Source of the DNA: a virus
Taxonomy: Duplodnaviria; Caudoviricetes
Reading direction: 5' to 3' (one strand)
IMG/VR virus record: IMGVR_UViG_3300028364_000013
DNA: 64,000 bases
The notes under the pieces were generated by a model. The model was not told the origin of the DNA. It made no database searches and worked only from the letters and a program-made list of their open reading frames with translations. A program made the translations under genes and the position numbers. Shown here piece by piece: positions 1-44,467 of the stretch; within the stretch, counting starts at the first letter, position 1; each line of letters opens with the position of its first letter.

Positions 1-20
1 ACCAATTTGTCCACTGAGCA
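1..20 (-). tRNA. 5' part of a tRNA cut by the window edge (identity unknown)
   Basis: Reverse strand reads TGCTCAG TG GAC AAATTGGT, an acceptor strand plus D-loop like the adjacent tRNA-Gln. Confidence 0.55.
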
Positions 21-26
21 ATTTAG

Positions 27-100
27 TTGTAAGAGAAGGCTTCGAACCCTCAAATTCTCGATTCAGAGTCGAGTGACTTTACCAGTTTGTCTATCCTACA
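27..100 (-). tRNA. tRNA-Gln(CTG)
   Basis: Cloverleaf, anticodon arm CTCGA-CTCTGAA-TCGAG, U1-A72. Confidence 0.92.
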
Positions 101-166
101 ATATCGCACACATTACTAATATCCCAACCCCTGCAGAGGTTGTCGTTCATAAAGCATATGCATACT

Positions 167-252
167 TGGTTGTACAGGTAGGGCTCGAACCTACACGCCT
201 TTTGGGCACCCGCTTCAAAGGCGGGCGAATCTGCCAGTTTCTCCACTGTACA
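167..252 (-). tRNA. tRNA-Gln(TTG) with long variable arm, CCA encoded
   Basis: CCCGC-CTTTGAA-GCGGG; variable region TGCCCAAAAGGCGT; T-arm GTAGG-TTCGAGC-CCTAC. Confidence 0.85.
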
Positions 253-293
253 ATATTACACTTTACTATCAATGGTCAATAGTAAAGTGTTTG

Positions 294-364
294 TTTCGGG
301 GAGAAGATTCGAACTTCTATGGTCACTGTCAAAAAGTGAAATCCTGCCATTAGACGACCCCGAA
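294..364 (-). tRNA. tRNA-Gln(TTG)
   Basis: TCACT-TTTTGAC-AGTGA anticodon arm, canonical T-arm. Confidence 0.9.
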
Positions 365-375
365 ATATTAAACAC

Positions 376-407
376 AAAAAAAAGCCTGAACGTTCAGTCC
401 AGGCTTT
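376..407 (-). terminator. Intrinsic terminator (attenuator) ahead of the Gln tRNA cluster
   Basis: AAAGCCTG-N11-CAGGCTTT followed by T-run. Confidence 0.85.
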
Positions 408-436
408 AAATATTTTTGTTTTATTAACTAAAATGT

Positions 437-517
437 TCAGGCACCACCAGGACTGTCCTCTTTCGAAGATTGTTGCTGCTGTTGCTGCTGTACGTTTATG
501 TTAATTACTGTTTTCAT
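437..517 (-). CDS. Putative attenuation leader peptide, poly-Gln: MKTVININVQQQQQQQSSKEDSPGGA
   Basis: 26-aa ORF read by hand; 7 consecutive CAG/CAA codons; terminator then three tRNA-Gln follow. Confidence 0.85.
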   Translation of the reverse strand: MKTVININVQQQQQQQSSKEDSPGGA

Positions 518-577
518 TACTTTTAAATAGTATTCTTTTTTTGTTTACCAATAATCAGCGTGGTAATCCGCTATTTG

Positions 578-659
578 TGACCCAGGTCGGAGTCGAACCG
601 ACACGTCTTGCGACACACGCCCCTTAAACGTGCGTGTCTACCAATTCCACCACTGGGCC
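578..659 (-). tRNA. tRNA-Leu(AAG)
   Basis: CACGT-TTAAGGG-GCGTG, long variable arm, A73. Confidence 0.85.
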
Positions 660-767
660 AATTTAACCATAACTTAGTAAAGTGCCTCTACCGTTCTACT
701 GTCGAAGTTTGTTCGGGTGTTTACTCGCCTTGATAAGGACTGTCGATTGTTATAATTAATTTCTTAT

Positions 768-780
768 ACGCAAATGTAAT
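768..780 (-). promoter_or_regulatory. Bacteroidota-type sigma promoter -7 element (TACATTTG)
   Basis: Matches TAnnTTTG; similar elements near 4738, 29992, 34985, 36802, 44392, 60041. Confidence 0.65.
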
Positions 781-865
781 ACTTTTGTTTCAATTATTCA
801 ACTCTTTTTTTAATTATTTTTGTCGTAAGCAATAGGGTTCAGAAATTTTTAATATATTTATTGAT

Positions 866-1786
866 ATGAACAAAGAATCTAAAACAGAAAAGTTTATTCA
901 AAAAGCAATTTGTGCTCATGTAGATAGATATGACTATTCTCTATCTAAATATTCAAATTCTAAAATTAAAGTTATAATTATATGCTCAAAGCATGGTCAG
1001 TTTAGTGTAACTCCAGATAATCATATAAATAAAAAATCTGGGTGCCCTAAATGCAATGGTGGGGTTAGATTATCTATCAATGAATTCATTGAGCAATCTA
1101 ACAAATCTCACAATAGCAAGTATGATTATTCTTTAGTAGAATATAAAAATAACGCCACTAAAGTGACAATAATATGCCCAGAGCATGGAAAATTTAAACA
1201 GAGGCCTCAAGACCACATGAACAAACTTGGATGCTCTAAATGTGGCATTAAAAAAAGAGCTAATTCAAGAACTTCAAATGCAGAAGAATTTATTAAAAAA
1301 GCAATTTATACTCATGGAGACAAATATGATTATTCAAATGTTGAGTATAAAAAATCAAACTTAAATGTAACAATAATATGTAATCAACATGGTGAATTTC
1401 AACAAAAACCAAATGACCACCTTAGCAATAAAAATGGCTGTCCTATCTGTTGTGAATCTAAAGGAGAAATTGCAATAAGAAATTTCTTAACAGAAAATTC
1501 AATAAAATTTATACCTCAAAAAAGATTCAAAGATTGTAAAGACAAAAGAACACTTCCTTTTGATTTTTATTTGCCAAAATTAAATCTTTGCATAGAATAT
1601 GATGGCATTCAGCATTTTAATAAAAAAAACAGATACTATTCAGATGACAGAAAGAAAAAAGATGAAATCAAAAATCAATATTGCACAGGCATAAATGATA
1701 AACCTAAAATTTTAAGAATATCTTACCTTGAAATTGATGATATTAATCAAATTCTAACAAACTCTGTCAAACGACAAAAACAATAA
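866..1786 (+). CDS. Putative homing endonuclease: repeated Cys/His zinc-binding modules plus C-terminal PD-(D/E)XK (DUF559/Vsr-like) domain
   Basis: Repeats of YDYS.VEY....KV.IIC..HG.F.Q.P.DH....GC.KC; C-terminal PFDFYLP..NLCIEYDGIQH. Confidence 0.8.
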   Translation: MNKESKTEKFIQKAICAHVDRYDYSLSKYSNSKIKVIIICSKHGQFSVTPDNHINKKSGCPKCNGGVRLSINEFIEQSNKSHNSKYDYSLVEYKNNATKVTIICPEHGKFKQRPQDHMNKLGCSKCGIKKRANSRTSNAEEFIKKAIYTHGDKYDYSNVEYKKSNLNVTIICNQHGEFQQKPNDHLSNKNGCPICCESKGEIAIRNFLTENSIKFIPQKRFKDCKDKRTLPFDFYLPKLNLCIEYDGIQHFNKKNRYYSDDRKKKDEIKNQYCTGINDKPKILRISYLEIDDINQILTNSVKRQKQ

Positions 1787-1796
1787 ATCAAAGAAC

Positions 1797-2045
1797 TTAA
1801 AATAGATTTCTCAAAAAACTTTTTAGTGAGTTGAATCTATTCTTAATATATTTAAAAACGTTAATTTTAGCTACAAAGAAGTATGCTCCAAAAAACGAAG
1901 CTGACAATAGGTAGAAAATAGACATAGTAGTCCAATAATCTCCCGTCCATTTCATCACAACTGCCGTTGCAGCATCGAATCCTATTGGACAAAAGAACAT
2001 TCCCATCATTAGGAACATTATACCTATGTTCTTTCTGTTTCTCAT
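1797..2045 (-). CDS. Small membrane protein
   Basis: Two hydrophobic segments. Confidence 0.6.
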   Translation of the reverse strand: MRNRKNIGIMFLMMGMFFCPIGFDAATAVVMKWTGDYWTTMSIFYLLSASFFGAYFFVAKINVFKYIKNRFNSLKSFLRNLF

Positions 2046-2124
2046 AATCCCCTATACTGTCTGATTCCATTTAATCAAGTTTTGTTAATAATTTTCCACC
2101 AAAAGTGGACTCTTCTATAAATAG

Positions 2125-2796
2125 TTTAAATTCCTTCAACAAGAATTTGATACAGCTAAAAGCGATGACAAACTACCTTGTCAATGCTCAGTTTGCAAAG
2201 AAACTTTTTATCTAACAAAACACCAAACACAAAGAGTATTAAATCCAAATCAACAAAAAAATGGAAATTTTTGTTCTAACAAATGTAGAGCAAAAAACAA
2301 CACTAAAAAAGAAACAATAAATTGCACAAACTGTGATGAAGAATTTGAAAAACAATATAGCCAAATTAAAAAATCAAAAAACCACTTTTGCTCTCTCTCT
2401 TGTAATGCAACCTACAACAACAAACACAAAACCCACGGCACTCGTAGGTCAAAACTTGAAGTTTGGCTGGAGGAGCAGTTAACCAAGCTTTATCCAAATA
2501 TCCAAATAGACTTCAACAAGAAAAATACTATAGAGTCTGAACTTGACATCTATATACCTTCATTAAACCTTGCTGTTGAGCTCAATGGAATCTTTCACTA
2601 TGAACCTATATACGGAGTTGATAAACTCCAGCAGATTCAAGAGAACGACATCTCCAAATCCAAGGCATGTCATGACTTAAAAATCGACTTATGCACCATC
2701 GACACAAGTGGTCAAAAATACTTCAAAGAATCTACTTCCAAAAAATATCTTGACATCATAAATAATATTATCAAAGAACGCATGTTAACCTCTTAG
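2125..2796 (+). pseudogene. Start-less PD-(D/E)XK endonuclease ORF, paralog of 41334..42011
   Basis: Open frame 2125-2796 (FKFLQQEFDTAKSDDKLPCQCSVC...ELDIYIPSLNLAVELNGIFHYEPIYG...KYLDIINNIIKERMLTS*), preceded by in-frame TAG, no ATG near the 5' end. Confidence 0.7.
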
Positions 2797-2852
2797 CCAG
2801 CTTTACCTGTTTCCAACAACCGCTACGTGGAAGCGGGTTAACTTTGGTTGTC

Positions 2853-2943
2853 TACTCCTGGTCGGACTCGAACCGACAACGTTTACCTGCATGGGTATCA
2901 GATTTTAAGTCTGATGCGTTTCAACCAATTTCGCCACAGGAGC
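2853..2943 (-). tRNA. tRNA-Leu(TAA)
   Basis: TCAGA-CTTAAAA-TCTGA, long variable arm. Confidence 0.92.
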
Positions 2944-2952
2944 ATTTGTTTG

Positions 2953-3033
2953 TACAGATAGCGAGAGTCGAACTCGCACGCCTCTCGGCCATAGCTTCTA
3001 AGGCTATTGTGTCTACCATTCCACCACATCTGC
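2953..3033 (-). tRNA. tRNA-Leu(TAG)
   Basis: ATAGC-CTTAGAA-GCTAT, long variable arm. Confidence 0.92.
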
Positions 3034-3046
3034 ATGGCGCTGTAGA

Positions 3047-3595
3047 TTAATCTACAGCTTTATATTTTCTAAAAGTCATACTCACTCTTGGGCCACAATC
3101 TCTATCGTGCTTAGGAATCCTGTGCAAATTTGTATCTTGGAATCCTGGAGGCATATAGAATAAAGAACCATTTTCTAACTTTCTCTTATTCTCTTCTGGA
3201 ACTACTCCTTTTTCTCCTTTTAACTTCCACCAAATTTCTCTTTCAGCCCCAAATGATACAACCGCTATCCCATCATTATGGTCAATTGAATGAGAGTCGT
3301 CAGCGTGCCATCCTAATCCATTTCTTGAGTTCATATATAAATTCAAGAAGCAAATATCCAAACTTGTTCCCAACTTTTTATTAACCTTTTCCATTATTTC
3401 CCTAATCGCAGGCAACATTGGTGTTGATTTATAAGTTGGAGCTCCACTGTGGTCTAAGTAAGAGTATTCAATGTCAGAATCTGCCATAAAACACTCTCTT
3501 CTCATCTTCGTCTCATCAATCCAACTAACATCCCTTACCAAGGTGTCAATAAAATCTTCATTGACCAAATCATTTATGTATACTAACTTTTTCAT
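3047..3595 (-). CDS. AlkB-like 2OG-Fe(II) dioxygenase
   Basis: LN.Y...NGLGWHADD (HxD), distal HRIPK and RVSMTFR motifs. Confidence 0.85.
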   Translation of the reverse strand: MKKLVYINDLVNEDFIDTLVRDVSWIDETKMRRECFMADSDIEYSYLDHSGAPTYKSTPMLPAIREIMEKVNKKLGTSLDICFLNLYMNSRNGLGWHADDSHSIDHNDGIAVVSFGAEREIWWKLKGEKGVVPEENKRKLENGSLFYMPPGFQDTNLHRIPKHDRDCGPRVSMTFRKYKAVD

Positions 3596-3609
3596 TTCAT
3601 TTTTATTTG

Positions 3610-3682
3610 TAACTCCACCCAGATTCGAACTGAGACTTTAACGTTCGTAGCGTTAGGTGCTAATCCATTACACCATGGAGCT
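3610..3682 (-). tRNA. tRNA-Arg(ACG)
   Basis: TAACG-CTACGAA-CGTTA. Confidence 0.9.
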
Positions 3683-3985
3683 ATGAATTTCAAAGTGACA
3701 ATTAGCACAAACCAACATACACTTATCTAATTCTTCTTTTATTTTTTTATCAAACTTATGCGACTTCATTTTACTTAAAGCAAAACCTTTTTCTTTTGGG
3801 TCAAGGTGATGAAACTGTAAAGCTCCAACATATTTATCATATCCACATTTTTCACAACAACCACCTTTGTATTCAACGCATTTAATTTTAAACTTTCTAC
3901 CACGTTCTCTACTCTCTTCTTTATATCCAAGAGCCTCTAAAATTATTGGAAGTGCTGATTCTGTGTAAAATATTCTCGGTTTCAT
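3668..3985 (-). CDS. HNH endonuclease (likely start 3985; stop lies inside tRNA-Arg)
   Basis: CEKCGY..ALQFHHLDP..CMLVCANCHFEIH; paralog of 29137 and 57310. Confidence 0.8.
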   Translation of the reverse strand: MKPRIFYTESALPIILEALGYKEESRERGRKFKIKCVEYKGGCCEKCGYDKYVGALQFHHLDPKEKGFALSKMKSHKFDKKIKEELDKCMLVCANCHFEIHSSMV

Positions 3986-4000
3986 ATTTAAAATTTTTTG

Positions 4001-4081
4001 TACAGATGACGAGAGTCGAACTCGCACGCCTTTCGGCACTGGTTTCTAAAACCAGCGTGTCTACCATTCCACCACATCTGC
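4001..4081 (-). tRNA. tRNA-Leu(TAG)
   Basis: CTGGT-TTTAGAA-ACCAG, long variable arm. Confidence 0.92.
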
Positions 4082-4141
4082 ATATTTTTGGATAGTTAGT
4101 CGGAATATTTCCGATTATCCTATCACAATTTTACATTTTTG

Positions 4142-4215
4142 TAGGAGTAGAGGAATTCGAATCCCCGACATCTGACATGTAAAATCAGCGCTCTAACCAA
4201 CTGAGCTATACTCCT
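4142..4215 (-). tRNA. tRNA-Val(TAC)
   Basis: CTGAT-TTTACAT-GTCAG. Confidence 0.92.
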
Positions 4216-4305
4216 ATTTTTTCTAAATTTATAAATTTCATCTTAGGTCAAACCAAGAAGGGCTCGAAATTTAATTTTTAATATATTTTTTAATAAAAAC
4301 TATTA

Positions 4306-4350
4306 AAAAATATCTTGACATCATAATCAATATTATCAAAGAACGAACAT
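4306..4350 (+). pseudogene. 3'-end remnant of the endonuclease gene at 2125..2796
   Basis: aaaaaatatcttgacatcataatcaatattatcaaagaacg is nearly identical to ~2741-2781. Confidence 0.6.
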
Positions 4351-4394
4351 TAAATGCTAAAACCTAAATAATAATTATTTCAAAGAACTTATAG

Positions 4395-4468
4395 TGGAAT
4401 AGGGTGGATTCGAACCGCCAACGCTCACCGCTTCAAGATGACGCTCTACCAATTGGAGCTACTATTCC
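4395..4468 (-). tRNA. tRNA-Phe(GAA)
   Basis: TCATC-TTGAAGC-GGTGA. Confidence 0.88.
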
Positions 4469-4521
4469 ATTTATTTCAATAATTTTCCTTTCGAATACCA
4501 ATGGACGTTTCCATAGGGCAC

Positions 4522-4554
4522 AAAAAAAGCCCGAACAATTATGTTCGGGCTTTT
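4522..4554 (-). terminator. Intrinsic terminator (attenuator) ahead of the Phe/Val/Leu/Arg cluster
   Basis: AAAAGCCCGAACA-TAAT-TGTTCGGGCTTTT plus T-run. Confidence 0.88.
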
Positions 4555-4584
4555 AAAATATCTTGTGTTATATAATTTACATCA

Positions 4585-4689
4585 TCACACTAAAGACATA
4601 TCACGTCCGAACTTTTGTCTACTAAAGACAAACAGTAACTGCAAGAATTGCAGTGATAACTGACGTAATATGTTGTTAATGTTTTTCAT
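4585..4689 (-). CDS. Putative leader peptide, Leu/Phe-rich: MKNINNILRQLSLQFLQLLFVFSRQKFGRDMSLV
   Basis: 34-aa ORF with 7 Leu, 4 Phe, 2 Val, 3 Arg; terminator then the matching tRNAs follow. Confidence 0.8.
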   Translation of the reverse strand: MKNINNILRQLSLQFLQLLFVFSRQKFGRDMSLV

Positions 4690-4821
4690 GTTATTTCTAA
4701 ATATACTAAAATTTTGTTTTCTCGTTTTATTATACGCAAATATAATACTTTTGTTTCAATAAAACCTAATCTTTTTTAGATAAAATTAAAATTAATTTAT
4801 AATCACTTGATTGTTAGCGCT

Positions 4822-5304
4822 TTATTCTATACTAATTTTTCCTTCATCATCCCAGAAAACATTTCTCTCTCCCATTTTTGAAGCTATTTGTGATAATTTT
4901 TCTCCGACATCTCCAAGTCCTCTATCCCAAAAACCAGCACCATGACCATTTCTTGTAAGCCAAAGGTCATGTCCAATTTGAGAAGGGTCTATATTATTAA
5001 GAAGACTTCCTGCAGCATTAACAAAATCTCTAATATCTGTATAGGCATCAATTTTTGAATCGTTGTTTATATAAGATTCAAGGTCACCTTCTGAACCAAG
5101 CTCTTCTTCTGCTGTGAAAATAGCAGCTTCAATATAACTATCCAGCATGCTTATTGTATCTTTGCTTGCTACTTCATTTTCTATCATTAGAAATTCATCT
5201 TGAAGCTTTTTTTTCTCATTCTCAAGAATTGACTTTTTTGTAACTTTATTTGTTCCTTCAGATATAATAGAACTTAATTTTGATATGATTTCTTTTTTTT
5301 TCAT
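4822..5304 (-). CDS. Hypothetical phage protein
   Basis: 160-aa ORF, C-terminal GHDLWLTRNGHGAGFWDR motif, upstream TATTTATA. Confidence 0.75.
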   Translation of the reverse strand: MKKKEIISKLSSIISEGTNKVTKKSILENEKKKLQDEFLMIENEVASKDTISMLDSYIEAAIFTAEEELGSEGDLESYINNDSKIDAYTDIRDFVNAAGSLLNNIDPSQIGHDLWLTRNGHGAGFWDRGLGDVGEKLSQIASKMGERNVFWDDEGKISIE

Positions 5305-5370
5305 GATAAAAGTACCTTTTCTATAAATACAAAAAAAAACCCGACACTTATGTACCAGGTTTTTAAAATT

Positions 5371-6138
5371 TTACCACCAATCCCAAAGGCAACTGTGCTT
5401 GTGGTTGTATCTGAATTCTACGAAGTCATCGCAGTAATCAGAAAGCCAACATCCCCAGTCATCGTTGATGTCATCATACTTCGCAAACATCATGCTCATG
5501 TTCTTTTTGAGCGCTTGCTTGTTGTGATGTCTATCGGCTCTGTTGTAGAGTTGAACCATGTCTTTGCTTGGTCCACTTCTCCATCCGTGCTTTTTCTTTT
5601 CATTAAAAAATGTAGTTTCTAAAGCAGCGTCAATTTCAGCCTCTTCTTGCTTAAGCACTTCATCAATCACTTTGTAGTGAGTCTTGTAGTGCTTAGACTT
5701 TTTTAGCTTAAAGTAGTACTCAGGTAAATTAACCTTGTAAAACTTTTTAACACTTCCCCAGTAAACTCTGTCTTCTGATGGGGCGTATACGAAGAATCTT
5801 TTGCACCACGGAAGAAGTCTTTCATAAGTACCTTCGTCAATTAATTTGAAGTAAGGCTTAATGTCAACTTCTCTTTTTTGCTTATAATCATATATGGTAA
5901 AAGACTTGTCTCTGCACCAAACTGATTTACCAAAGTGATAAATTAGATTCTCAATATCCTCTCCATCTTTACTTCTGGCAATGTCTGCTCTAAGCTTCCA
6001 TTCGCCATCGTAACCATCGTGGATTGGTTTATCAAGTGGTTTGTAACCAAGAGCTCTTTGAGCTTCCCAGTTTTCGTTTAACTCATTTTCCTTTCGGAGA
6101 TAAGCCTTGAACTTTTCAGTTCTCTCATTTCTTTTCAT
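5371..6138 (-). CDS. Hypothetical protein
   Basis: 255-aa ORF. Confidence 0.75.
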   Translation of the reverse strand: MKRNERTEKFKAYLRKENELNENWEAQRALGYKPLDKPIHDGYDGEWKLRADIARSKDGEDIENLIYHFGKSVWCRDKSFTIYDYKQKREVDIKPYFKLIDEGTYERLLPWCKRFFVYAPSEDRVYWGSVKKFYKVNLPEYYFKLKKSKHYKTHYKVIDEVLKQEEAEIDAALETTFFNEKKKHGWRSGPSKDMVQLYNRADRHHNKQALKKNMSMMFAKYDDINDDWGCWLSDYCDDFVEFRYNHKHSCLWDWW

Positions 6139-7218: not shown

Positions 7219-8337
7219 CTAATGTACTACTTTAGCGATTGCAGGATTGTTCCTAATCCCGAAATTCATTATATTTTTACCTGCATTAACATCTCTATCT
7301 TCCGAATGTCCACACTTATCACAATTATATGTCCTATCTGAAAGTTTAAGGTCTTTCTTGATATTCCCACAAACATTGCACAATTTACTACTTGGTTCAA
7401 ATCTTCCGATTACAACAAGGTTTTTACCTTGCCATTCAGATTTATATTCAAGCATTGTTCTTAATTGCCCCCAACCCATATCAGATATAGCCTTTGCTAA
7501 ACAATGGTTTTTAACCATATTAGAAACTGCTAAATCCTCAATACAAATTGTTTCATAAGTATCCACTAATTCAGTAGATATTTTATGCAAATAGTCAGTC
7601 CTTTGGTTACGGATTTTCTCTTGCAATAATGCTACTTTTAATTTTTGTTTTTCTCTATTACTACTTCCTTTTACTTTTCTTGCTAAACTTCTTTGTTCAA
7701 CTCTCAGCCTTATTTGTTGTGATTTGAAAAAGTTTTTATTTTCATACACAACTCCATCAGAAGTGATAGCTAAATCTTTAATCCCAAAATCAATTCCTAC
7801 ACTTGTACTTGTTGTAATTATTTTCTTTTTAGGTATTTCTTTATCATTATCAACTAAAATAGATACAAAATATTTACCTGTTACAGTCTTAGTTAATGTT
7901 ACTCTTTTTGGTATTCCTTTAAATTCTCTATGATAATCAATAGCAACTTCTTTTAATTTAGGAAGTTTAATAACATTGTCCTTAAATGATATTTCAAAAC
8001 CTTGCGGAAATGTAATTGATTGTTTAGAATATCTATTTTTATATTTAGGAAATTGCCCCCTGCCTTTAAAAAAGTTTTGATATGCAGTATCTAAATTAAT
8101 TAAACTATGTTGCAAAATTTGGCTTGGGCATTCCTTTATGTAATCAAATTCTTTTTTTAATTCGGGTAATTGTTTAATTAAATCATACTTAGATATTGAT
8201 TTTTTGTTTGAAGCATACGCAGTAGTCTTAGTTTCTAACCCTAAGTTAAAAACCAATCTATTAACTCCAAAGTACCGTTGTAATTGGTCTTTTTGAGTTT
8301 CCGTTGGGAAAATTCTGTATTTATATCCTTTTAACAT
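7219..8337 (-). CDS. tnpB: TnpB RNA-guided endonuclease
   Basis: N-terminal YKYRIFPT HTH, RuvC motifs GIDFGIK / IEDL / DRDVNA, zinc finger CNVC..CDKC. Confidence 0.95.
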   Translation of the reverse strand: MLKGYKYRIFPTETQKDQLQRYFGVNRLVFNLGLETKTTAYASNKKSISKYDLIKQLPELKKEFDYIKECPSQILQHSLINLDTAYQNFFKGRGQFPKYKNRYSKQSITFPQGFEISFKDNVIKLPKLKEVAIDYHREFKGIPKRVTLTKTVTGKYFVSILVDNDKEIPKKKIITTSTSVGIDFGIKDLAITSDGVVYENKNFFKSQQIRLRVEQRSLARKVKGSSNREKQKLKVALLQEKIRNQRTDYLHKISTELVDTYETICIEDLAVSNMVKNHCLAKAISDMGWGQLRTMLEYKSEWQGKNLVVIGRFEPSSKLCNVCGNIKKDLKLSDRTYNCDKCGHSEDRDVNAGKNIMNFGIRNNPAIAKVVH

Positions 8338-8888: not shown

Positions 8889-9246
8889 TCGTTACCTTTG
8901 TCGCTTACATCTCACCCACGCAAAAGCGATGAGTGAGTTTTACGCTCCGTTTTATAAAAAATGTGATGTTATCTCATAAGATAACGCTACTTTCATTGCA
9001 ACCTCTTTATCAAGACCTTCTAAAAAACCATACTCATCCCATCTATTAAAGATGTAGTGATTGGAAATTCTGTCTTTATCAAGGATTCCAAACCTTCCGC
9101 TGTTTAATAATTCACTCATGAGGAAATATACAAAAGATAATTCATAAAATCAAAAAAAGCCCTTAGAATAATCCAAGAGCTTTTTATATTATTCAGCGCA
9201 AAACCTAATCATCACCGTTGGTGTGACTGGGAGGATTGGGGGTTTT

Positions 9247-10275
9247 TTATTTAATCAAAAATTCTTGGAGAACCTCACTCCCAAACTCTCCTTTGGTTAA
9301 ATTAATTATTTCTGTAACTGAATATTTTTCTTTCTTATTTATTTTATTTCTCTCAACAAAATCTTTAACACCAAAACTGCAAGCTCCAGTTATAGCTCGA
9401 TAACAAGAAACTGCTTGCTCAAAACTTAACTTATCTGTTAGCTTTAAGTTTTTAAAATCATCTTTGTTTACATCAGAATTTAACTTATAAATCAAATCTT
9501 CTCTTGCTTCTGAAAGAGAGTCTCCATGAGCATATCTGCCATTCCCATCTGTAACCAAATAAAAAACCTTCTCTTTAAATAGCTCTTTAACTCTGAAAAC
9601 ACCGCCTCTCACAGAAATAATCTCTGTAAATATACCATCTGCCTTTATGTATTTATCGCCCCACATAACTGGTCCAATTAATTTCGTGTAATCACAAGTC
9701 AAACCTCCCAAGTCCAAACCTCCTCCAACGGTTGGGTTAAATCCCTCTGGAATCGAAGTCAAGTTGTTCAAGTACAAACCTTCTCCAACAGTTGGGTTAA
9801 ATCCCTCTGGAATCGAAGTCAAGTTGTTCAAGTACAAACCTTCTCCAACAGTTGGGTTAAATCCATCTGGAATCGAGGTCAAACTGTTCAAGTCCAAACC
9901 TCCTCCAACGGTTGGGTTAAATCCCTCTGGAATCGAAGTCAAGTTGTTCAAGTACAAACCTTCTCCAACAGTTGGGTTAAATCCATCTGGAATCGAAGTC
10001 AAACTGTTCAAGTCCAAATATCCTCCAACGGTTGGGTTAAATCCCTGTGGAATCGAGGTCAAACCGCTCAAGTCCAAACCTCCTCCAACGGTTGGGTTAA
10101 ATCCCTCTGGAATCGAAGTCAAGTTGTTCAAGTACAAACCTTCTCCAACAGTTGGGTTAAATCCATCTGGAATCGAAGTCAACCCTCTCAAGTGCAAGCT
10201 TCCATTTATTTTAACTTCACCAGTAAACTGCTCTTCAGTTAAATTGTATTCCTTGCAAAATTCTTTTTTATTCAT
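9247..10275 (-). CDS. Protein with tandem 20-aa LRR-like repeats (LxLxxLTSIPEGFNPTVGG)
   Basis: About 8 units of a 60-nt repeat; close paralog of 22234..23262. Confidence 0.85.
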   Translation of the reverse strand: MNKKEFCKEYNLTEEQFTGEVKINGSLHLRGLTSIPDGFNPTVGEGLYLNNLTSIPEGFNPTVGGGLDLSGLTSIPQGFNPTVGGYLDLNSLTSIPDGFNPTVGEGLYLNNLTSIPEGFNPTVGGGLDLNSLTSIPDGFNPTVGEGLYLNNLTSIPEGFNPTVGEGLYLNNLTSIPEGFNPTVGGGLDLGGLTCDYTKLIGPVMWGDKYIKADGIFTEIISVRGGVFRVKELFKEKVFYLVTDGNGRYAHGDSLSEAREDLIYKLNSDVNKDDFKNLKLTDKLSFEQAVSCYRAITGACSFGVKDFVERNKINKKEKYSVTEIINLTKGEFGSEVLQEFLIK

Positions 10276-10283
10276 AATGTTTT

Positions 10284-11831
10284 TTATTTTGTTTCTAATT
10301 TTATAAATGGTTTAATCTTTTCACACTGTTTTAGTGCGACTCTAATTTCTTCAAATTTTCCAGGAATTACTGGATAGTAGAGTTCATTTATTTTCGTAAT
10401 GGCATAGTGAATCTCTAGGACTAGCGGCCAACCTTTCTCAAGGTCTTTCCAAGGTTCTGCATCACCAATTCTCTTATTAAGTTCTTTTACAAGCTTGTTT
10501 GTCTCTTGAAGGGCGTCTGAAATTAGATAGTTGTTCCAAAGTGTTTTTATATTGTCAATTCTCTGGTCAAGTCCAACACACCATTTTTCTTCAGACACAT
10601 AAGAGTGGTCTAATTCAATATTTGGGTCATCCACGAACTTGTCGAGAGTCTTACTAGCCAATACGGTGACTCTGGTGACTAAATTACCATAATCATCAGC
10701 AAGGTCATTGTTGTATTTAGCTACAAGCAACTCTTCATCCCAAGATGAGTTTCCATAAGTTCTTAAACCCGCAAGCGCATAGTAACGAACTGCATCAACT
10801 CCATATTTTTTAACTTGGTCAATAGGGTCAACAACATTTCCAACAGACTTACTCATCTTACGTCCATCTTTATCCAAAATAGTTCCATGAACAAGTAATT
10901 TATCTGTTTTTTTGATTCCTGCAGACATTAATAGTCCCTGAAATATTACAGACTGGAATTTAAGGTTATCTGGGCCACAAATCTGAATTACTTCAGACTC
11001 ATTCCACCTTTCTTCAAAGTCATGGTCGTCATGAAGGTCATTAGGGTAGTATCCTGCAGCAAATATGTAGTTTAACAAAGCATCAAACCATACATATATG
11101 ATTTGGTCTTCATCTCCTGGAACTGGGATTCCCCAACTAACAGTTTCTTTAACTCTGGATATAGAAATGTCCTGAAGATTCTCTATAATCTTATCGAATT
11201 CTCCAATCTTATTCTTTGGTTCAAAAAATTTGTCATTTACATGCAGCCACTGAAGAAACCTTTCTCTATATTTAGAAAGTTTGAAGAAATAGTTTTCTTC
11301 TTCAACTTCTTGAAGCTCTGTTGTTGGGTGGTCTGGACAAACTTTTCTTTTGTGTATATGCACCTTAGGATATTCAAGAGCAGGGTCAACTCCTCCAATA
11401 ATTCTATCCTCAAGTTCTCTATCGCTTTTGAATGACTCGCATCCAACACAATAGGTTCCAGTGTATTTCTTTTTGTAGATGTCGCCTCTATTGAAGGCTT
11501 CAACCCAGAACTGCTGAACATTCACATAATGCTCTGAGTCAGATGTTCTGTAAAATGAATCCCAGCTATCAATCTTAAGTTCTTTAATGAAATCTTCCCA
11601 ACTGTAAAGAAGGTCATCAACATATGCTTGAGGAGAAATACCCTTAGCTTCAGCTGCTTGCTGAATCTTTAAGCCATGTTCATCAAGACCAATATTGAAA
11701 AATACATTATCACCACGATATTTGAAATATCTCACCAAAGCATCAGCTATGATAAATTCAAAAGCGTGTCCTATGTGCGGATTTGAGTTCGCATATGGCA
11801 ATGTGGTCGTTATGTATTTATTTTTATTCAT
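10284..11831 (-). CDS. metG: Methionyl-tRNA synthetase
   Basis: HIGH and KMSKS motifs, YVWFDAL, anticodon-binding helical C-terminus. Confidence 0.95.
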   Translation of the reverse strand: MNKNKYITTTLPYANSNPHIGHAFEFIIADALVRYFKYRGDNVFFNIGLDEHGLKIQQAAEAKGISPQAYVDDLLYSWEDFIKELKIDSWDSFYRTSDSEHYVNVQQFWVEAFNRGDIYKKKYTGTYCVGCESFKSDRELEDRIIGGVDPALEYPKVHIHKRKVCPDHPTTELQEVEEENYFFKLSKYRERFLQWLHVNDKFFEPKNKIGEFDKIIENLQDISISRVKETVSWGIPVPGDEDQIIYVWFDALLNYIFAAGYYPNDLHDDHDFEERWNESEVIQICGPDNLKFQSVIFQGLLMSAGIKKTDKLLVHGTILDKDGRKMSKSVGNVVDPIDQVKKYGVDAVRYYALAGLRTYGNSSWDEELLVAKYNNDLADDYGNLVTRVTVLASKTLDKFVDDPNIELDHSYVSEEKWCVGLDQRIDNIKTLWNNYLISDALQETNKLVKELNKRIGDAEPWKDLEKGWPLVLEIHYAITKINELYYPVIPGKFEEIRVALKQCEKIKPFIKLETK

Positions 11832-19791: not shown

Positions 19792-21219
19792 TTAGTATTT
19801 CCTTTTTGAAGGGTCGTCATCAGCCATCCTAACCACTTGTGGTGTGAATGTACCAAGAATATCAATCAAGTTGTTTTGCGCTTCCATTACTTTCGTAATA
19901 TCTTTATAAGCATATGGAGCCTCATCGAGACCGCCACCAACAAGTGTTACCTTGTTATCTTTAAGAAGCTTAGTAACTGAGCTTTGAGTAAACGAGTTTC
20001 TCGCCACCTTTCTTGACATAGCTCTACCAGCACCGTGAGAAGCTGAAGATATTGAGTCAACAACACCTCTTCCTCTAACAATGAACCCTGGAGAAACCAT
20101 AGAACCTGGGATTATACCAAGGACACCTTTTCCAGCAGGAGTTGCTCCCTTACGGTGAACAATAACCTCTTTACCATCAATGATTTCCTTCCAAGCAAAG
20201 TTGTGGTGATTTTCAATCTTAGCCACTGGGTTTAACTTTAGCTCTTTGGTAATTCTTCTGTGAATCTCGTTGTGACAAGCTTGCGCATAATCACCAGCCA
20301 TATTCATAGCTATCCAGTATTCCACACCAGCTTCCGAATTCATATCAAGCCACGCAAGGTGTTGAGCTGCCTTTGGAAGAGGTGTTGTGTTCATAGCAAT
20401 TTCATGATACTTGTTGGCAAGTGTAGCACCGAACCCTCTTGAACCAGAGTGAGTTAATACACCAACATATTCTCCAACCTCAAGACCGAAGTCGTTAGTT
20501 GGGTCAGTTATCTTAACTATACCAAAGTCCACAAAGTGATTTCCACCTCCTGAAGTTCCAAGTTGTTTCCAAGCTTTGTCCTTAAGAGCTTTTATGTTTG
20601 GTATTTCATTGAACTCTTTCCTATCAAGGAATTCGTGTTCAGTTAATTTACCATCATTCTCAACTCCCATTCCGAAGAATGACTCAGACTTAAGAATGTT
20701 TTCAATCTTATCTCTATTTCCATCAATGTATGAACCACCTTTATCGTAGATGGTCATGTGCATTCTACAACCTATGTCAACACCAACTGCATATGGAATA
20801 ATAGCATTATCTGTAGCAAGGACACCTCCAATTGGAAGTCCATAACCTTGGTGAGCATCTGGCATAAGAGCTGCAGCAACAGAGATTGGCAATCTTGCAG
20901 CAAGTTTTATTTGCTCGTGAGCGCCTTCTTCTATGTTGTCTCCACCATATACAGTATATGGCACACCAACTTCTTTAAGTGGGATTTCAATCACTTCCTC
21001 TTCTACAGCTGGAATCAATAATTCAGCGATTGGCCCAAGAACAATGTCTTCAACATAATCTTCTGGAGTCAAAAGTACAGCCTTTAAAATATCACGTACA
21101 GTATCAAGGTCACTGTGCTTGTAAGCTTTTGTTACAATCTTCAATGTTACACCCATAACTTTACCTGGCTCCATTCCGAACGCCATAAGGTCTTTGCCTG
21201 TTATCTTTAACTTTACCAT
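19792..21219 (-). CDS. rtcB: RtcB RNA ligase (3'-phosphate/5'-OH, tRNA repair)
   Basis: MPDAHQGYGLPIGG, VGVDIGC, LGTSGGGNHF, HRKGAT, SHGAGR, LDEAPYAYK. Confidence 0.95.
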   Translation of the reverse strand: MVKLKITGKDLMAFGMEPGKVMGVTLKIVTKAYKHSDLDTVRDILKAVLLTPEDYVEDIVLGPIAELLIPAVEEEVIEIPLKEVGVPYTVYGGDNIEEGAHEQIKLAARLPISVAAALMPDAHQGYGLPIGGVLATDNAIIPYAVGVDIGCRMHMTIYDKGGSYIDGNRDKIENILKSESFFGMGVENDGKLTEHEFLDRKEFNEIPNIKALKDKAWKQLGTSGGGNHFVDFGIVKITDPTNDFGLEVGEYVGVLTHSGSRGFGATLANKYHEIAMNTTPLPKAAQHLAWLDMNSEAGVEYWIAMNMAGDYAQACHNEIHRRITKELKLNPVAKIENHHNFAWKEIIDGKEVIVHRKGATPAGKGVLGIIPGSMVSPGFIVRGRGVVDSISSASHGAGRAMSRKVARNSFTQSSVTKLLKDNKVTLVGGGLDEAPYAYKDITKVMEAQNNLIDILGTFTPQVVRMADDDPSKRKY

Positions 21220-24712: not shown

Positions 24713-25384
24713 TTAAGACCTTCCACCTTTACAGATTATATCAGCTGCACAAGTTGCAGCCCAAGAGTTAGGCTTAAACCTTACTCTGTATCCTAATCCC
24801 TCAAGATGCGCTTTTGCAGCAGCATAAACAATGTGGGACCTGTTCTTTGGAATACCTGGAGACTTACCTGCTCTGATAAGTTCTTTTTGCCAAGAAGTCC
24901 AACCAGCATCTGGGTTAATGTCAATATCAATATCAACTAACTTGGTTTGGTTTGACTTGTAACCTTTAGCAACAGCTTCTTCTGGTGTCATCCTCTTGTA
25001 CTTCCCTTCAAGCTCTCTCTCAAAGTATTCTCCAAGTTCGAAAAGCCTTTCGGTTTCATGCCAGATTCTTTGGAAAATAGATGAAGTCAAATTCTTTCTG
25101 TGAAGCTCTTTGTCTTTAACTTTGTTTCCAGTCTTGCTGAATTTAACTTGGTTACCAGAAATAAGCTCTCTATTGAAAATGTAGTGTACACCGTCATTTC
25201 TGTCGTTATCGTAAAACGCTACAACATCTGCATACATAATTTTTCTACCATTTCTTCTTACATCAGAGTCGCATCCAATGTAAACAGTTTCTCCTGGAAA
25301 TTTCTCAATGTGTCCTCTAACGTACTCACCAAGGTCAGCAATTATTTCACCTCCAAATTTCTTAAATACTCTTTCTTCCATCAT
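24713..25384 (-). CDS. YkuK/DUF458-like RNase H-fold protein
   Basis: VYIGCDSD start motif, IDIDINPD, WAATCAAD. Confidence 0.7.
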   Translation of the reverse strand: MMEERVFKKFGGEIIADLGEYVRGHIEKFPGETVYIGCDSDVRRNGRKIMYADVVAFYDNDRNDGVHYIFNRELISGNQVKFSKTGNKVKDKELHRKNLTSSIFQRIWHETERLFELGEYFERELEGKYKRMTPEEAVAKGYKSNQTKLVDIDIDINPDAGWTSWQKELIRAGKSPGIPKNRSHIVYAAAKAHLEGLGYRVRFKPNSWAATCAADIICKGGRS

Positions 25385-25536: not shown

Positions 25537-25647
25537 CTACTTCATAACACTCAAACTAACGTTTTTTTTGCAAAACGGACATACCCCTTCCAGGCCGCAA
25601 TCAATCGCTTGCGAAGTTGGTCTCCAATATGTCATGTTAGTTTTCAT
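25537..25647 (-). CDS. Putative leader peptide, Cys-containing: MKTNMTYWRPTSQAIDCGLEGVCPFCKKNVSLSVMK
   Basis: 36-aa ORF with 3 Cys, upstream TATTTATA; terminator then two tRNA-Cys follow. Confidence 0.7.
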   Translation of the reverse strand: MKTNMTYWRPTSQAIDCGLEGVCPFCKKNVSLSVMK

Positions 25648-26225: not shown

Positions 26226-26323
26226 TGGACAATACGAGAATCGAACTCGTATCTCCAGTTTGCGCTATCCTGTGTGGTTGCACTTCATAGCCTTCACCGA
26301 TTTACCAATTAATCTAATTGCCC
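26226..26323 (-). ncRNA. tRNA-like RNA with expanded, non-canonical anticodon region
   Basis: Acceptor GGGCAAT/ATTGTCC, D-arm and T-arm intact; ~45-nt insert with GCTAT/ATAGC pairing. Confidence 0.6.
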
Positions 26324-26328
26324 TTTTG

Positions 26329-26398
26329 TTGGTGTAGAGGGACTCAAACCCCCGACCCCCTGAATTACAGGTGCTCTAATCAACTGAGCTATACACCG
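26329..26398 (-). ncRNA. tRNA-like RNA with collapsed anticodon loop and C1xA72
   Basis: CCTG-TAATT-CAGG (5-nt loop), otherwise a cloverleaf. Confidence 0.6.
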
Positions 26399-28930: not shown

Positions 28931-29016
28931 GGTGAAAGATGGGTTCTGACCCCACGACCTCCCGATTCACAGTCGGGCGCTCTACGACTTTCGTCTCCAG
29001 CTGAGCTACAATCACC
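28931..29016 (-). tRNA. tRNA-His(GTG) with hairpin insertion in the D-loop
   Basis: CCCGA-CTGTGAA-TCGGG; G-1/C73; D-loop AGCTGGA-GAC-GAAA-GTC-GTA. Confidence 0.82.
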
Positions 29017-29936: not shown

Positions 29937-29981
29937 TGTGTTTCTTTTTTCTAAATAGTAATTAAAAATTCTTTTTTTGTT

Positions 29982-33989: not shown

Positions 33990-34945
33990 TTAAAAGCCTG
34001 AGTTTACAGCATTTATTAGCGTCCTTTAATGACCTTACCCACATCATCTTGCGGTTAATCAATGTATCCACGCACCCTTTCAGGTGGTATACGCCAGTCT
34101 CGATACCTATGGGGTATCATTCCTATCGTGCAATCTAACTCTGTATTTTCCACCTACACTATCTTGCCAGACATATGCGAGCTTTCGTTACAATCGACAC
34201 CCACCTTGCGAGGATGAATGACTCCCTGATTCTGCCGAAGCATCCAGGGTCTGAGAGACCTTTTAATATACACGCCCATGAGACTTTCACTTTTTTTCTG
34301 TTTATAGTAAAAACCAGCCATGCCAAGGCTAATATATACTGCATGAGATATACAGTACGAAGAGACGTGCCCACAGGAGTGGTTTCATAACTTTTTGGTT
34401 ACAAAATGCCACACGCCTCTCTGTTAGTCTATGCTGACCAACAATTAAACCCGAATTACTTTCTACGAATAGTTAAGTAACCAAATCCAAATGAGATGAA
34501 GCCCTTGCGTTTCTTACACGCTCGAACAACACAACTAAGCTTTTCCTTTTCATCAGCCGAAGCCAACTTTTTTTGCAAAATTTCTAATGCTCAACTACCA
34601 TTTTTAATCTCATGATAGTTTACCTTGTCCAGGTAAGTACTCACTTATTGCATAGGTGTCCAACAGAATAAATTCTGAAGGCGAGGGTGACACCCCCTTT
34701 TATAGCTTGTTACCAAACTTTATCTTCCCACAAGGGGCTTGCAATGATTTTCATCACCACGAGACTCTACACAGCCTCAAAATGATTGTTATTTGAATTG
34801 TAAAAGCTGGTTCATGTTACATAACCAATTTAAAAGCGAAGGACTCTGCTATATTTCATACAGTTGAATGTTTGTCCCATTCTCACTTTCCTCACTTACT
34901 CTTACTGTCGAATGGACCTAAACATTTAGACCAATAACAATTTTT
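33990..34945 (-). ncRNA. Large structured non-coding RNA candidate (~950 nt, possibly GOLLD-like)
   Basis: No credible ORF; own TAGCTTTG promoter at ~34985 and a terminator; many hairpins (TTACCT/AGGTAA, AACTATCAT/ATGGTAGTT, TACTGTAT/ATGCAGTA, GATACC/GGTATC, TTCG loops). Confidence 0.65.
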
Positions 34946-35690: not shown

Positions 35691-35741
35691 AACCTATCTG
35701 TTTAAAGATAAATAGTACAAAAAAGTACAAAATCGACTAAG

Positions 35742-35814
35742 GGAATCCATACGGGATTCGAACCCGTGCCTCCTGCCGAAAGGCAAGCGCTCTATCCGCT
35801 GAGCTAATGGACAC
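35742..35814 (-). ncRNA. tRNA-like RNA, Glu(TTC)-like with 6-nt anticodon loop
   Basis: CTTGC-CTTTCG-GCAGG; D- and T-arms canonical; imperfect acceptor. Confidence 0.55.
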
Positions 35815-35897
35815 ATCACCTTAATATCGTTCTACTAAAACTATCTTCAGGCTCCATTCACAACATTAGTAGGGTTGCTTCAGGACTTTTTTTAAAG

Positions 35898-35997
35898 TGG
35901 CGAAGGGAGGATTCGAAACCTCCGACCCCCAATGCTGTCCATTCTTTCACAAGAACAACTAACACACTGGTGCTCTGACCAACTGAGCTACCTCGCC
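35898..35997 (-). ncRNA. tRNA-like RNA with elongated anticodon arm capped by a GTGA tetraloop
   Basis: Acceptor GGCGAGG/CTTCGCC; CCAGTG..TTCTT-GTGA-AAGAA..CATTGG. Confidence 0.65.
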
Positions 35998-44332: not shown

Positions 44333-44467
44333 TTGAATTTGTTTCTCTTTTTTCTAAATAGCAGAAAATTTCTTTTTCCGCTTTCTTCTACGCAAATATA
44401 TAACATTTGTTCTATTAAATCCAAATCTTTTTTAAAGAAATATTGAAAATAATTTTGAACCTCTTGA

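What the first reader, a model, noticed from the sequence alone, without database searches (positions are those of the whole stretch)
376..517. Poly-Gln leader attenuator heading three tRNA-Gln genes
The ORF has CAG CAG CAA CAG CAG CAA CAA, using both Gln codons, and both Gln anticodons (CTG, TTG) lie downstream. Leader block CAGTCC(T)GG pairs with the terminator's CCTGGACTG, and GCCTGAAC across the stop pairs with GTTCAGGC. The terminator ends a few nt before the first tRNA. This is the clearest single example of the system.
Basis: partly seen in the sequence, partly recalled or inferred. Interest (0 to 1): 0.9.

Follow-up and report, generated by a model that had tools for sequence, protein, structure and literature searches.

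The report
Poly-Gln leader attenuator gating phage tRNA-Gln genes
A 26-codon mini-gene with seven glutamine codons in a row, followed by a switchable transcription stop, sits just before this lake phage's four glutamine tRNA genes; it most likely lets the phage make those tRNAs only when ribosomes read glutamine codons slowly, a control I found described nowhere for tRNA genes.

Summary
On the minus strand, ORF 517..437 has Gln codons at positions 10-16. A hairpin plus U8 terminator (404..376) ends 11 nt before the first of four (not three) tRNA-Gln genes. The distal leader pairs with the terminator's 5' arm (-14.5 kcal/mol), and the Gln codons pair with the distal leader. This is the classical 1:2 / 2:3 / 3:4 attenuator layout.

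It is one of six parallel units in the window.
- Matching leaders to tRNA clusters by amino acid, the true assignment ranks 1 of 720.
- Each leader pairs best with its own terminator across nine independent units (p about 5e-6).
- A relative (MetRS 68% identical) keeps the poly-Gln leader, with an in-frame loss of one Gln codon, a synonymous Gln change and an A-U to G-U change in the antiterminator.
- The same design appears in other uncultured phages and in the cultured Caulobacter phage CcrColossus.

I found no paper describing leader-peptide attenuation of tRNA genes. Earlier unchecked notes of this scan report the design in about 20 other genomes. Nothing has been tested experimentally. 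Verdict: a real feature and a new variant of a known kind.

The parts
767..791 (-). Putative promoter of the unit (TTG ... TAnnTTTG type, as in Bacteroidota). The same 25-nt motif precedes leaders B, D and E.
   Evidence: 4 matches in the window against 0 expected. A similar motif lies upstream of tRNA-Leu in the relative L299 (sequence shown).
577..659 (-). tRNA-Leu(AAG). It lies between the promoter and the leader and has no terminator in front of it.
   Evidence: ARAGORN and Rfam. The order is the same in L299.
524..531 (-). ACTATTTA motif 6 nt before the ATG. Related (C/A)TATTTAGAAA motifs precede the other leaders. Function unknown; possibly a proximal promoter element.
   Evidence: It is kept in L299 within an otherwise poorly conserved stretch (read by eye).
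437..517 (-). Leader ORF, 26 codons plus a TGA stop.
   Evidence: The ortholog in L299 differs by an in-frame 3-nt deletion and keeps the same stop.
470..490 (-). Segment 1: seven consecutive Gln codons (4 CAG, 3 CAA), the proposed stalling site.
446..455 (-). Segment 2: CAGTCCTGGT in codons 21-24. It pairs either with the Gln codons (1:2) or with the terminator 5' arm (2:3, the antiterminator).
435..442 (-). GCCTGAAC across the stop codon, an exact complement of the terminator 3' arm (second possible anti-terminator contact).
   Evidence: Read directly from the sequence; identical in L299.
395..404 (-). Segment 3: terminator 5' arm plus the start of the loop (GCCTGGACTG).
376..391 (-). Segment 4: terminator 3' arm GTTCAGGC followed by T8.
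   Evidence: The arms are identical in L299 while the loop differs.
293..364 (-). tRNA-Gln(UUG), the first regulated gene.
167..252 (-). 86-nt tRNA with a UUG anticodon and a long variable arm.
   Evidence: An 85-nt counterpart exists in L299.
26..100 (-). tRNA-Gln(CUG).
1..20 (-). 5' part of a fourth tRNA-Gln(UUG) that continues beyond the window start.
   Evidence: ARAGORN on the whole genome.

Best explanation
This is a ribosome-mediated (leader-peptide) transcription attenuator that couples synthesis of the phage's four tRNA-Gln genes to how fast Gln codons are decoded in the infected cell. Transcription starts upstream, either at the promoter at 791..767 or at a proximal one. A ribosome then translates the 26-codon leader. 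If Gln-tRNA(Gln) is plentiful, the ribosome runs on to the TGA stop and covers segment 2 (446..455). The terminator (404..376) then forms and transcription stops 11 nt before the tRNA genes. If Gln-tRNA(Gln) is scarce, the ribosome stalls on the seven Gln codons (470..490). Scarcity could come from heavy phage demand, host tRNA loss or cleavage. Segment 2 stays free and pairs with the terminator's 5' arm as it emerges, the terminator cannot form, and RNA polymerase reads into the tRNA-Gln genes. With no ribosome at all, the Gln codons pair with segment 2 and termination is the default. Shown here: the sequence elements, their mutual exclusivity in folding, their conservation, and the statistical link between leaders, terminators and tRNA sets. 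Inferred: that the ORF is translated, that the hairpin terminates, and the direction of regulation.
For: (1) Anatomy. ORF, Gln run, terminator and tRNA genes are as described. The unconstrained fold gives a 1:2 hairpin plus the terminator, z = -3.85. With the RNA masked as by a ribosome stalled at the last Gln codon, the nascent RNA forms the 2:3 antiterminator (-15.3 kcal/mol) before the 3' arm exists. With a ribosome at the stop codon, the 2:3 antiterminator cannot form and the terminator forms. (2) The 7-Gln run is unique in 195 kb and sits at the only tRNA-Gln cluster. (3) It is one of six units with the same layout. Each leader's amino acids match its own tRNA cluster: the true assignment ranks 1 of 720 and every diagonal cell is the row and column maximum. 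At codon level the matches are contiguous blocks, 7/7 for Gln. (4) Each leader pairs best with its own terminator 5' arm: mean -13.6 against -8.3 kcal/mol for non-cognate pairs, permutation p about 5e-6 over nine independent units. (5) Conservation. A relative with 68% identical MetRS has orthologous poly-Gln and Leu/Phe/Val/Arg leaders. The poly-Gln ORF differs by an in-frame loss of one Gln codon, one synonymous Gln change and several non-Gln replacements. The stop, segment 2 and the terminator arms are kept, and one antiterminator pair changes A-U to G-U. The region upstream of the ATG is poorly conserved. (6) Independent instances. In L203, residues 3-20 of the leader all come from {R,T,H,S,L,P}, exactly the set of the 14-tRNA array behind the terminator. 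In L217 a Y/P/G/D-rich leader precedes Tyr, Pro, Gly and Asp tRNAs. In L238 a C/Q/H-rich leader precedes Cys, Gln and His tRNAs. In Caulobacter phage CcrColossus a block RNNVRQIRVRQFN precedes Val, Ile, Gln, Asn and Arg tRNAs, and a copy of the terminator's 3' arm lies inside the leader.
Against: There are no expression data. No RNA run holds the sequence, so translation of the ORF, termination at the hairpin and any change on Gln limitation are all untested. At equilibrium the terminator plus local hairpins is more stable than the antiterminator (-19.1 against -15.3 kcal/mol), so the switch must be kinetic, as in classical attenuators. No Shine-Dalgarno sequence precedes the ATG; my background knowledge is that Bacteroidota, the host type suggested by the promoter motif, generally lack one. 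The transcription start site is unknown. In the relative, a small ORF lies between the terminator and the tRNA-Gln genes, so close spacing to the tRNA is not essential. In some sister units (for example D) the antiterminator segment lies 30 nt or more before the stop, so a ribosome parked at the stop would not mask it.
Confidence: 0.8

Rival explanations
1. The ORF encodes a small functional poly-Q peptide. The hairpin is simply the terminator of the tRNA-Leu plus small-ORF transcript. The tRNA-Gln genes are expressed by constitutive leak-through or from an unrecognised promoter.
For: The ORF and terminator are conserved in the relative. A conserved ACTATTTA motif shows that there are promoter-like elements I do not understand.
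Against: Outside the Gln run the peptide changes freely (T/N, NV/SA, K/R, S/G, G/V), while the RNA pairing segments are kept. Only 11 nt separate the T run from the tRNA, which leaves no room for a promoter. This reading does not explain why nine unrelated leaders each mirror their own tRNA set and each carry a complement of their own terminator arm.
Confidence: 0.07
2. The same elements work with the opposite sign or through another factor. For example, completed translation of the leader could be needed for read-through (a test that the tRNAs work), or Rho or RNase processing rather than the intrinsic terminator could be the controlled step.
For: In some sister units the antiterminator segment lies far from the stop codon, so the simple masking model is not the only possible reading. 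The leader follows a tRNA gene, so RNase P and other processing act on the same transcript.
Against: In unit A segment 2 ends 5 nt before the stop codon, so a ribosome that completes translation must cover it and favour the terminator. The hairpin plus U6-U9 layout with a 24-34 nt spacer is uniform across units, which is typical of intrinsic termination.
Confidence: 0.07
3. It is a translation-independent RNA sensor: the CAG/CAA repeats bind tRNA-Gln anticodons directly, in the manner of a T-box, to control the terminator.
For: Codon-like specifier sequences and a terminator/antiterminator choice are also features of T-box leaders.
Against: No T-box family match appears in the window. All units are true ORFs with an ATG and an in-frame stop, and the relative differs by an in-frame 3-nt deletion. 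Multi-amino-acid leaders of 12-18 different codons do not fit a single specifier loop.
Confidence: 0.03
4. Coincidence: a slippage-generated CAG/CAA repeat happens to lie next to an ordinary terminator.
For: Trinucleotide repeats arise easily, and the relative differs by one repeat unit.
Against: It is the unique run in 195 kb and sits at the only Gln tRNA cluster. It is conserved in a diverged relative, it is one of six matched units (rank 1 of 720), and the antiterminator complementarity is specific.
Confidence: 0.03

Closest known systems
Leader-peptide transcription attenuators of amino-acid biosynthetic operons (trpL, hisL, pheL, leuL, thrL, ilvL of enterobacteria; textbook knowledge)
   Same: A short ORF carries a run of regulatory codons. 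Four RNA segments give 1:2, 2:3 (antiterminator) and 3:4 (intrinsic terminator) pairings. Ribosome position decides which forms. The sister units in this window sense several amino acids at once, as thrL and ilvL do.
   Different: The regulated genes are tRNA genes, not biosynthetic enzymes, so the loop senses and restores tRNA supply rather than amino-acid supply. The setting is a phage with a probable Bacteroidota host. I know of no classical leader with a Gln run. There is no sequence similarity to the Rfam leader families.
pheST attenuator (pheM leader) of E. coli phenylalanyl-tRNA synthetase (textbook knowledge)
   Same: Leader-peptide attenuation controls a component of the translation apparatus in response to charged cognate tRNA.
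   Different: The target there is the synthetase. Here it is the tRNA genes themselves, organised as several amino-acid-specific regulons.
T-box riboswitches
   Same: They sense tRNA status and choose between a terminator and an antiterminator ahead of translation-related genes.
   Different: T-boxes bind uncharged tRNA directly and need no translation. No T-box match was found here, and the element here is an ORF.
Long tRNA arrays (L-arrays) such as the Anabaena trn operon, induced under translational stress (PMC8421152; PMC10272220)
   Same: These are supernumerary tRNA arrays linked to rtcB and homing endonucleases, switched on when translation is impaired. This window also carries RtcB and many HNH genes.
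   Different: There, control is by direct repeats at the promoter (PMC8421152), which PMC10272220 attributes to the repressor TrcR. The words leader, attenuation and terminator do not occur in PMC8421152. Here control is a cis-acting leader ORF plus terminator, specific for each amino-acid set.

Membership tests
Ribosome-mediated (leader-peptide) transcription attenuators | Short ORF with start and stop codon directly upstream of the regulated genes | tested here: met
   26 codons, ATG 517 to TGA 437. The frame is kept in the relative despite a 3-nt indel.
Ribosome-mediated (leader-peptide) transcription attenuators | Cluster of codons for the sensed amino acid inside the ORF | tested here: met
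   Seven consecutive Gln codons, six in the relative. The run is unique in the genome.
Ribosome-mediated (leader-peptide) transcription attenuators | Intrinsic terminator between the leader and the regulated genes | tested here: met
   8-11 bp GC-rich stem plus U8, -11.8 kcal/mol for the core. Termination activity itself was not tested.
Ribosome-mediated (leader-peptide) transcription attenuators | Antiterminator: the distal leader pairs with the terminator 5' arm, exclusive with the terminator | tested here: met
   -14.5 kcal/mol duplex. It is cognate-specific across nine units (p about 5e-6) and kept in the relative through an A-U to G-U change.
Ribosome-mediated (leader-peptide) transcription attenuators | 1:2 pairing that sequesters the antiterminator segment when no ribosome stalls | tested here: met
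   Predicted in the window (-19.1 kcal/mol) and in the relative (-24.6 kcal/mol).
Ribosome-mediated (leader-peptide) transcription attenuators | Read-through rises when the cognate charged tRNA is limiting | not testable with these tools
   No RNA data exist for this uncultured phage. This needs a reporter or an in vitro assay.
Classical amino-acid operon leaders (Rfam Thr_leader, His_leader, Trp_leader and others) | Match to a curated covariance model, and regulated genes that are biosynthetic enzymes | tested here: not met
   The only hit is a sub-threshold Thr_leader match (25.5 bits against 55) at unit B, and there is none at 376-517. The downstream genes are tRNAs.
T-box riboswitch | Match to the curated Rfam T-box model (specifier loop, conserved T-box sequence) | tested here: not met
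   No T-box family match in 1-6000 at E up to 1, or in the whole window at gathering score.

The most novel reading that the evidence does not exclude
Large phages of several host phyla, and possibly bacterial tRNA arrays next to rtcB, split their tRNA genes into amino-acid-specific regulons. Each regulon is gated by a codon-matched leader-peptide attenuator. The virus would thus measure, codon family by codon family, how well the infected cell decodes, and top up exactly the tRNAs that run short. This would include shortages caused by host anticodon nucleases or host tRNA decay, making it a demand sensor and counter-defence circuit for the translation apparatus.
Probability: 0.5. Interest if true: 0.9.

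Novelty: new variant of a known kind. Interest (0 to 1): 0.8.

Why it matters
How phage tRNA genes are controlled is unclear, and I found no described cis-acting control. A cis-acting sensor that reads ribosome speed on the very codons served by the downstream tRNAs would give a simple feedback explanation. It would explain why large phages group their tRNAs by amino acid and how they adjust supply to demand or to host tRNA depletion. It would also extend leader-peptide attenuation from amino-acid metabolism to the tRNA pool itself. It offers compact, programmable 'codon-speed' sensors, and the leader spells out which tRNAs it serves. The same design in the cultured phage CcrColossus of Caulobacter crescentus makes the idea directly testable.

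Tried and rejected
- Exact poly-Gln DNA pattern in viral contigs: 120 loci, all protein poly-Q tracts, none next to a tRNA-Gln.
- Promoter-module pattern in viral contigs: 0 hits.
- Segment-2 pattern: only the relative already found.
- The search for related loci with the 255-aa neighbour: no relatives. With the 160-aa neighbour: a widespread domain, not informative.
- blastn and tblastn against cultured-phage records with the region and with leader B: only tRNA-level matches, or none.
- Sequencing runs: no RNA holder listed.
- Laying contigs of four DNA runs: fragmentary pieces. Positions 392-475 were without cover, so nothing was learnt about variation in the leader.
- Ten literature searches found no paper on attenuation of tRNA genes, including one on my recollection of a possible pheU/pheV precedent. 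The library lacks most subscription journals, so absence is not proof.
- A compensatory-change argument for the 1:2 hairpin was dropped, because the repeated codons allow several pairing registers.
- The motif (C/A)TATTTAGAAA is not a general promoter: 9 window matches against 4.9 expected, 4 of them at leaders. Its role stays open.

Full report
**What is there.** The window is AT-rich (34% GC). It comes from a virus record of 195 kb, assembled from lake-water metagenomes. It carries 37 high-confidence tRNA genes, all on the minus strand, and several more at lower thresholds. It also encodes MetRS, an RtcB fusion protein, an AlkB-like oxygenase, an FtsH-like protease and many HNH endonucleases.

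At the finding's coordinates the minus strand reads, in this order:
- tRNA-Leu(AAG) at 659..577;
- a 26-codon ORF at 517..437, with codons 10-16 CAG CAG CAA CAG CAG CAA CAA;
- a 32-nt AT-rich spacer;
- a hairpin GCCTGGAC/GTTCAGGC plus T8 at 404..376;
- 11 nt later, tRNA-Gln(UUG), an 86-nt UUG tRNA with a long variable arm, and tRNA-Gln(CUG);
- a fourth tRNA-Gln(UUG) that crosses the window start.

Also, the two pairings it names cross each other and cannot both form as nested helices.

**Is it more than chance?** The whole genome, both strands, has only two runs of four or more Gln codons. The seven-codon run is unique and lies directly upstream of the only tRNA-Gln cluster. The 212-nt region folds better than all 200 dinucleotide shuffles (z = -3.85).

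**Alternative structures.**
- The unconstrained fold pairs the Gln codons with the distal leader (1:2) and forms the terminator (3:4).
- Segment 2 (CAGTCCTGGT, 455..446) pairs with the terminator 5' arm and the start of its loop at -14.5 kcal/mol.
- I masked the RNA as a ribosome stalled on the last Gln codon would. The nascent transcript then forms this antiterminator (-15.3 kcal/mol) before the 3' arm is made.
- With a ribosome at the TGA stop, segment 2 is covered: the antiterminator cannot form and the terminator forms.
- At equilibrium the terminator state is somewhat more stable, so the switch must be kinetic, as in classical attenuators.

**The unit is one of a set.** An earlier first-reader note on this window listed six leaders, and I checked them. 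Each has an ATG, 26-39 codons, a stop, a 26-34 nt spacer, a GC hairpin with T7-8, and then tRNA genes. In unit C an ORF comes before the tRNA genes.

I scored each leader against each cluster by the share of residues whose tRNA lies in that cluster. The true assignment ranks first of 720 permutations, and each diagonal cell is the row and column maximum after normalisation. At codon level the matches form contiguous blocks: 7 of 7 for Gln, 12 in a row for the Pro/Met/Gly/Tyr/Ala/Asp unit, and 9 in a row for Arg/Trp/Ser.

Each leader's distal part also pairs best with its own terminator 5' arm. With three further independent units from other contigs, cognate duplexes average -13.6 kcal/mol against -8.3 for non-cognate pairs (permutation p about 5e-6).

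**Conservation.** A viral contig with a 68% identical MetRS (L297/L299) has the same order: a Leu/Phe/Val/Arg unit, tRNA-Leu(AAG), a poly-Gln leader, a terminator and four tRNA-Gln genes. Its poly-Gln ORF differs as follows:
- it has six Gln codons, an in-frame loss of one;
- it has one synonymous CAG to CAA change;
- it has several replacements outside the Gln run.

The stop codon, segment 2 and both terminator arms are kept, while the loop and the region upstream of the ATG have diverged. One antiterminator pair changes from A-U to G-U. The 1:2 hairpin is predicted in both sequences. This is the pattern expected of a regulatory leader and not of a functional peptide.

**Independent instances.** Loci found through the RtcB protein show the same design with different content.
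- L203: residues 3-20 of the leader come only from {R,T,H,S,L,P}, which is exactly the set of the 14 tRNAs behind the terminator.
- L217: a Tyr/Pro/Gly/Asp-rich leader, with an 8-bp copy of the terminator's 3' arm, precedes Tyr, Pro, Gly and Asp tRNAs.
- L238: a Cys/Gln/His-rich leader precedes Cys, Gln and His tRNAs.
Upstream of its Val, Ile, Ile, Gln, Gln, Asn, Arg array, a short ORF contains the block RNNVRQIRVRQFN and an exact copy of the 3' arm of the annotated terminator. A second array shows the same design.
- The genome paper for these Caulobacter phages reports no RNA elements other than tRNAs (PMC3556154).

**Mechanism.** The best-supported reading is a classical ribosome-mediated attenuator whose output is the cognate tRNA genes. 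Slow decoding of Gln codons stalls the ribosome, the antiterminator forms, and transcription reads through into four tRNA-Gln genes. Fast decoding lets the ribosome cover segment 2, and transcription terminates. This gives negative feedback on tRNA-Gln supply. Scarcity could come from phage demand, host tRNA decay or host anticodon nucleases. The last would fit the RtcB ligase in the same region, but that link is speculation. Translation of the ORF, activity of the terminator and the sign of regulation are all inferred.

**Comparison with known systems.** The element works like trpL, hisL, pheL and the pheST leader. It is not a member of any curated Rfam leader family and it is not a T-box. 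Ten full-text searches found no description of leader-peptide attenuation of tRNA genes. The nearest biology is the Anabaena long tRNA array, which is induced under translational stress through direct repeats in its promoter and a repressor (PMC8421152; PMC10272220).

Earlier unchecked notes of this scan report the same design in about 20 other genomes. They served as leads and are not counted as evidence.

**Verdict.** It is a new variant of a known kind and of high interest, but it rests entirely on sequence evidence.

Noticed in passing
window 33995-34421 (-): A full-length GOLLD RNA match (169.4 bits, gathering score 150), followed by a terminator at about 33952. Two unusual tRNA genes lie just upstream at 35741-35997.
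   Followed up: no
window 2784-2852 (-): An HDV-like ribozyme match (RF02682, 35.9 bits, below the gathering score of 44) immediately 3' of tRNA-Leu(UAA). From my own knowledge, it recalls the HDV-like 'theta' ribozymes reported next to phage tRNAs.
   Followed up: no
window 167-252 (-); counterpart in L299 (reverse strand 8907-8991): An 86-nt tRNA with a Gln anticodon (UUG) but a long variable arm and A73, which is a Leu/Tyr-like body. It is conserved in the relative. Its charging identity is unclear.
   Followed up: partly
window 35741-35813, 28931-29015, 26226-26323, 26329-26398, 35898-35997 (-): Odd tRNAs: one with a 6-nt anticodon loop (ARAGORN gives '???'), a tRNA-His with an insertion in the D loop, and others with apparent insertions. 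Most were found only by Rfam or by low-threshold ARAGORN.
   Followed up: partly
window 4694-4704, 29948-29958, 44351-44361, 59882-59892 (-); variants at 524-531 and before 25647: The motif (C/A)TATTTAGAAA lies 5-20 nt upstream of every leader ATG. It suggests a dedicated proximal promoter or initiation element and nearly leaderless leader mRNAs. Its function is unknown.
   Followed up: partly
window 25537-25647 (-) and genome outside the window: Leader C (three Cys codons) ends in TAG, and an ORF (24713-25384) follows it before the two tRNA-Cys genes. The genome carries a CUA (amber suppressor) tRNA about 2.7 kb beyond the window end, so this stop might be read through.
   Followed up: no
window 10284-11831, 19792-21219, 3047-3595, 61884-63995, 7219-8337 (-): A translation and repair gene set lies among the tRNA clusters: MetRS, an RtcB ligase fused to a tRNA-nucleotidyltransferase-like N-terminus, an AlkB-like 2OG oxygenase inside cluster B, and an FtsH-like protease. 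There is also a TnpB (IS605 OrfB) gene.
   Followed up: partly
L224 (842 kb contig) and L227, upstream of their tRNA arrays: Contigs that look cellular carry a 42-43 codon ORF, a strong terminator and a tRNA array near rtcB. The two ORFs share the C-terminus WGFV. The L227 leader is rich in Ser, Tyr, Phe and Trp, matching part of its array. The design may therefore extend to bacterial tRNA arrays.
   Followed up: partly
L302 (Caulobacter phage CcrColossus, NC_019406) 9749-9844 and 2865-2984: Two unannotated short ORFs mirror the tRNA arrays behind annotated or predicted terminators. This is a cultured, genetically tractable system for testing the mechanism.
   Followed up: partly
window about 10002-10062: The window differs from the held genome record at 24 positions clustered here. 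The cause is unknown.
   Followed up: no
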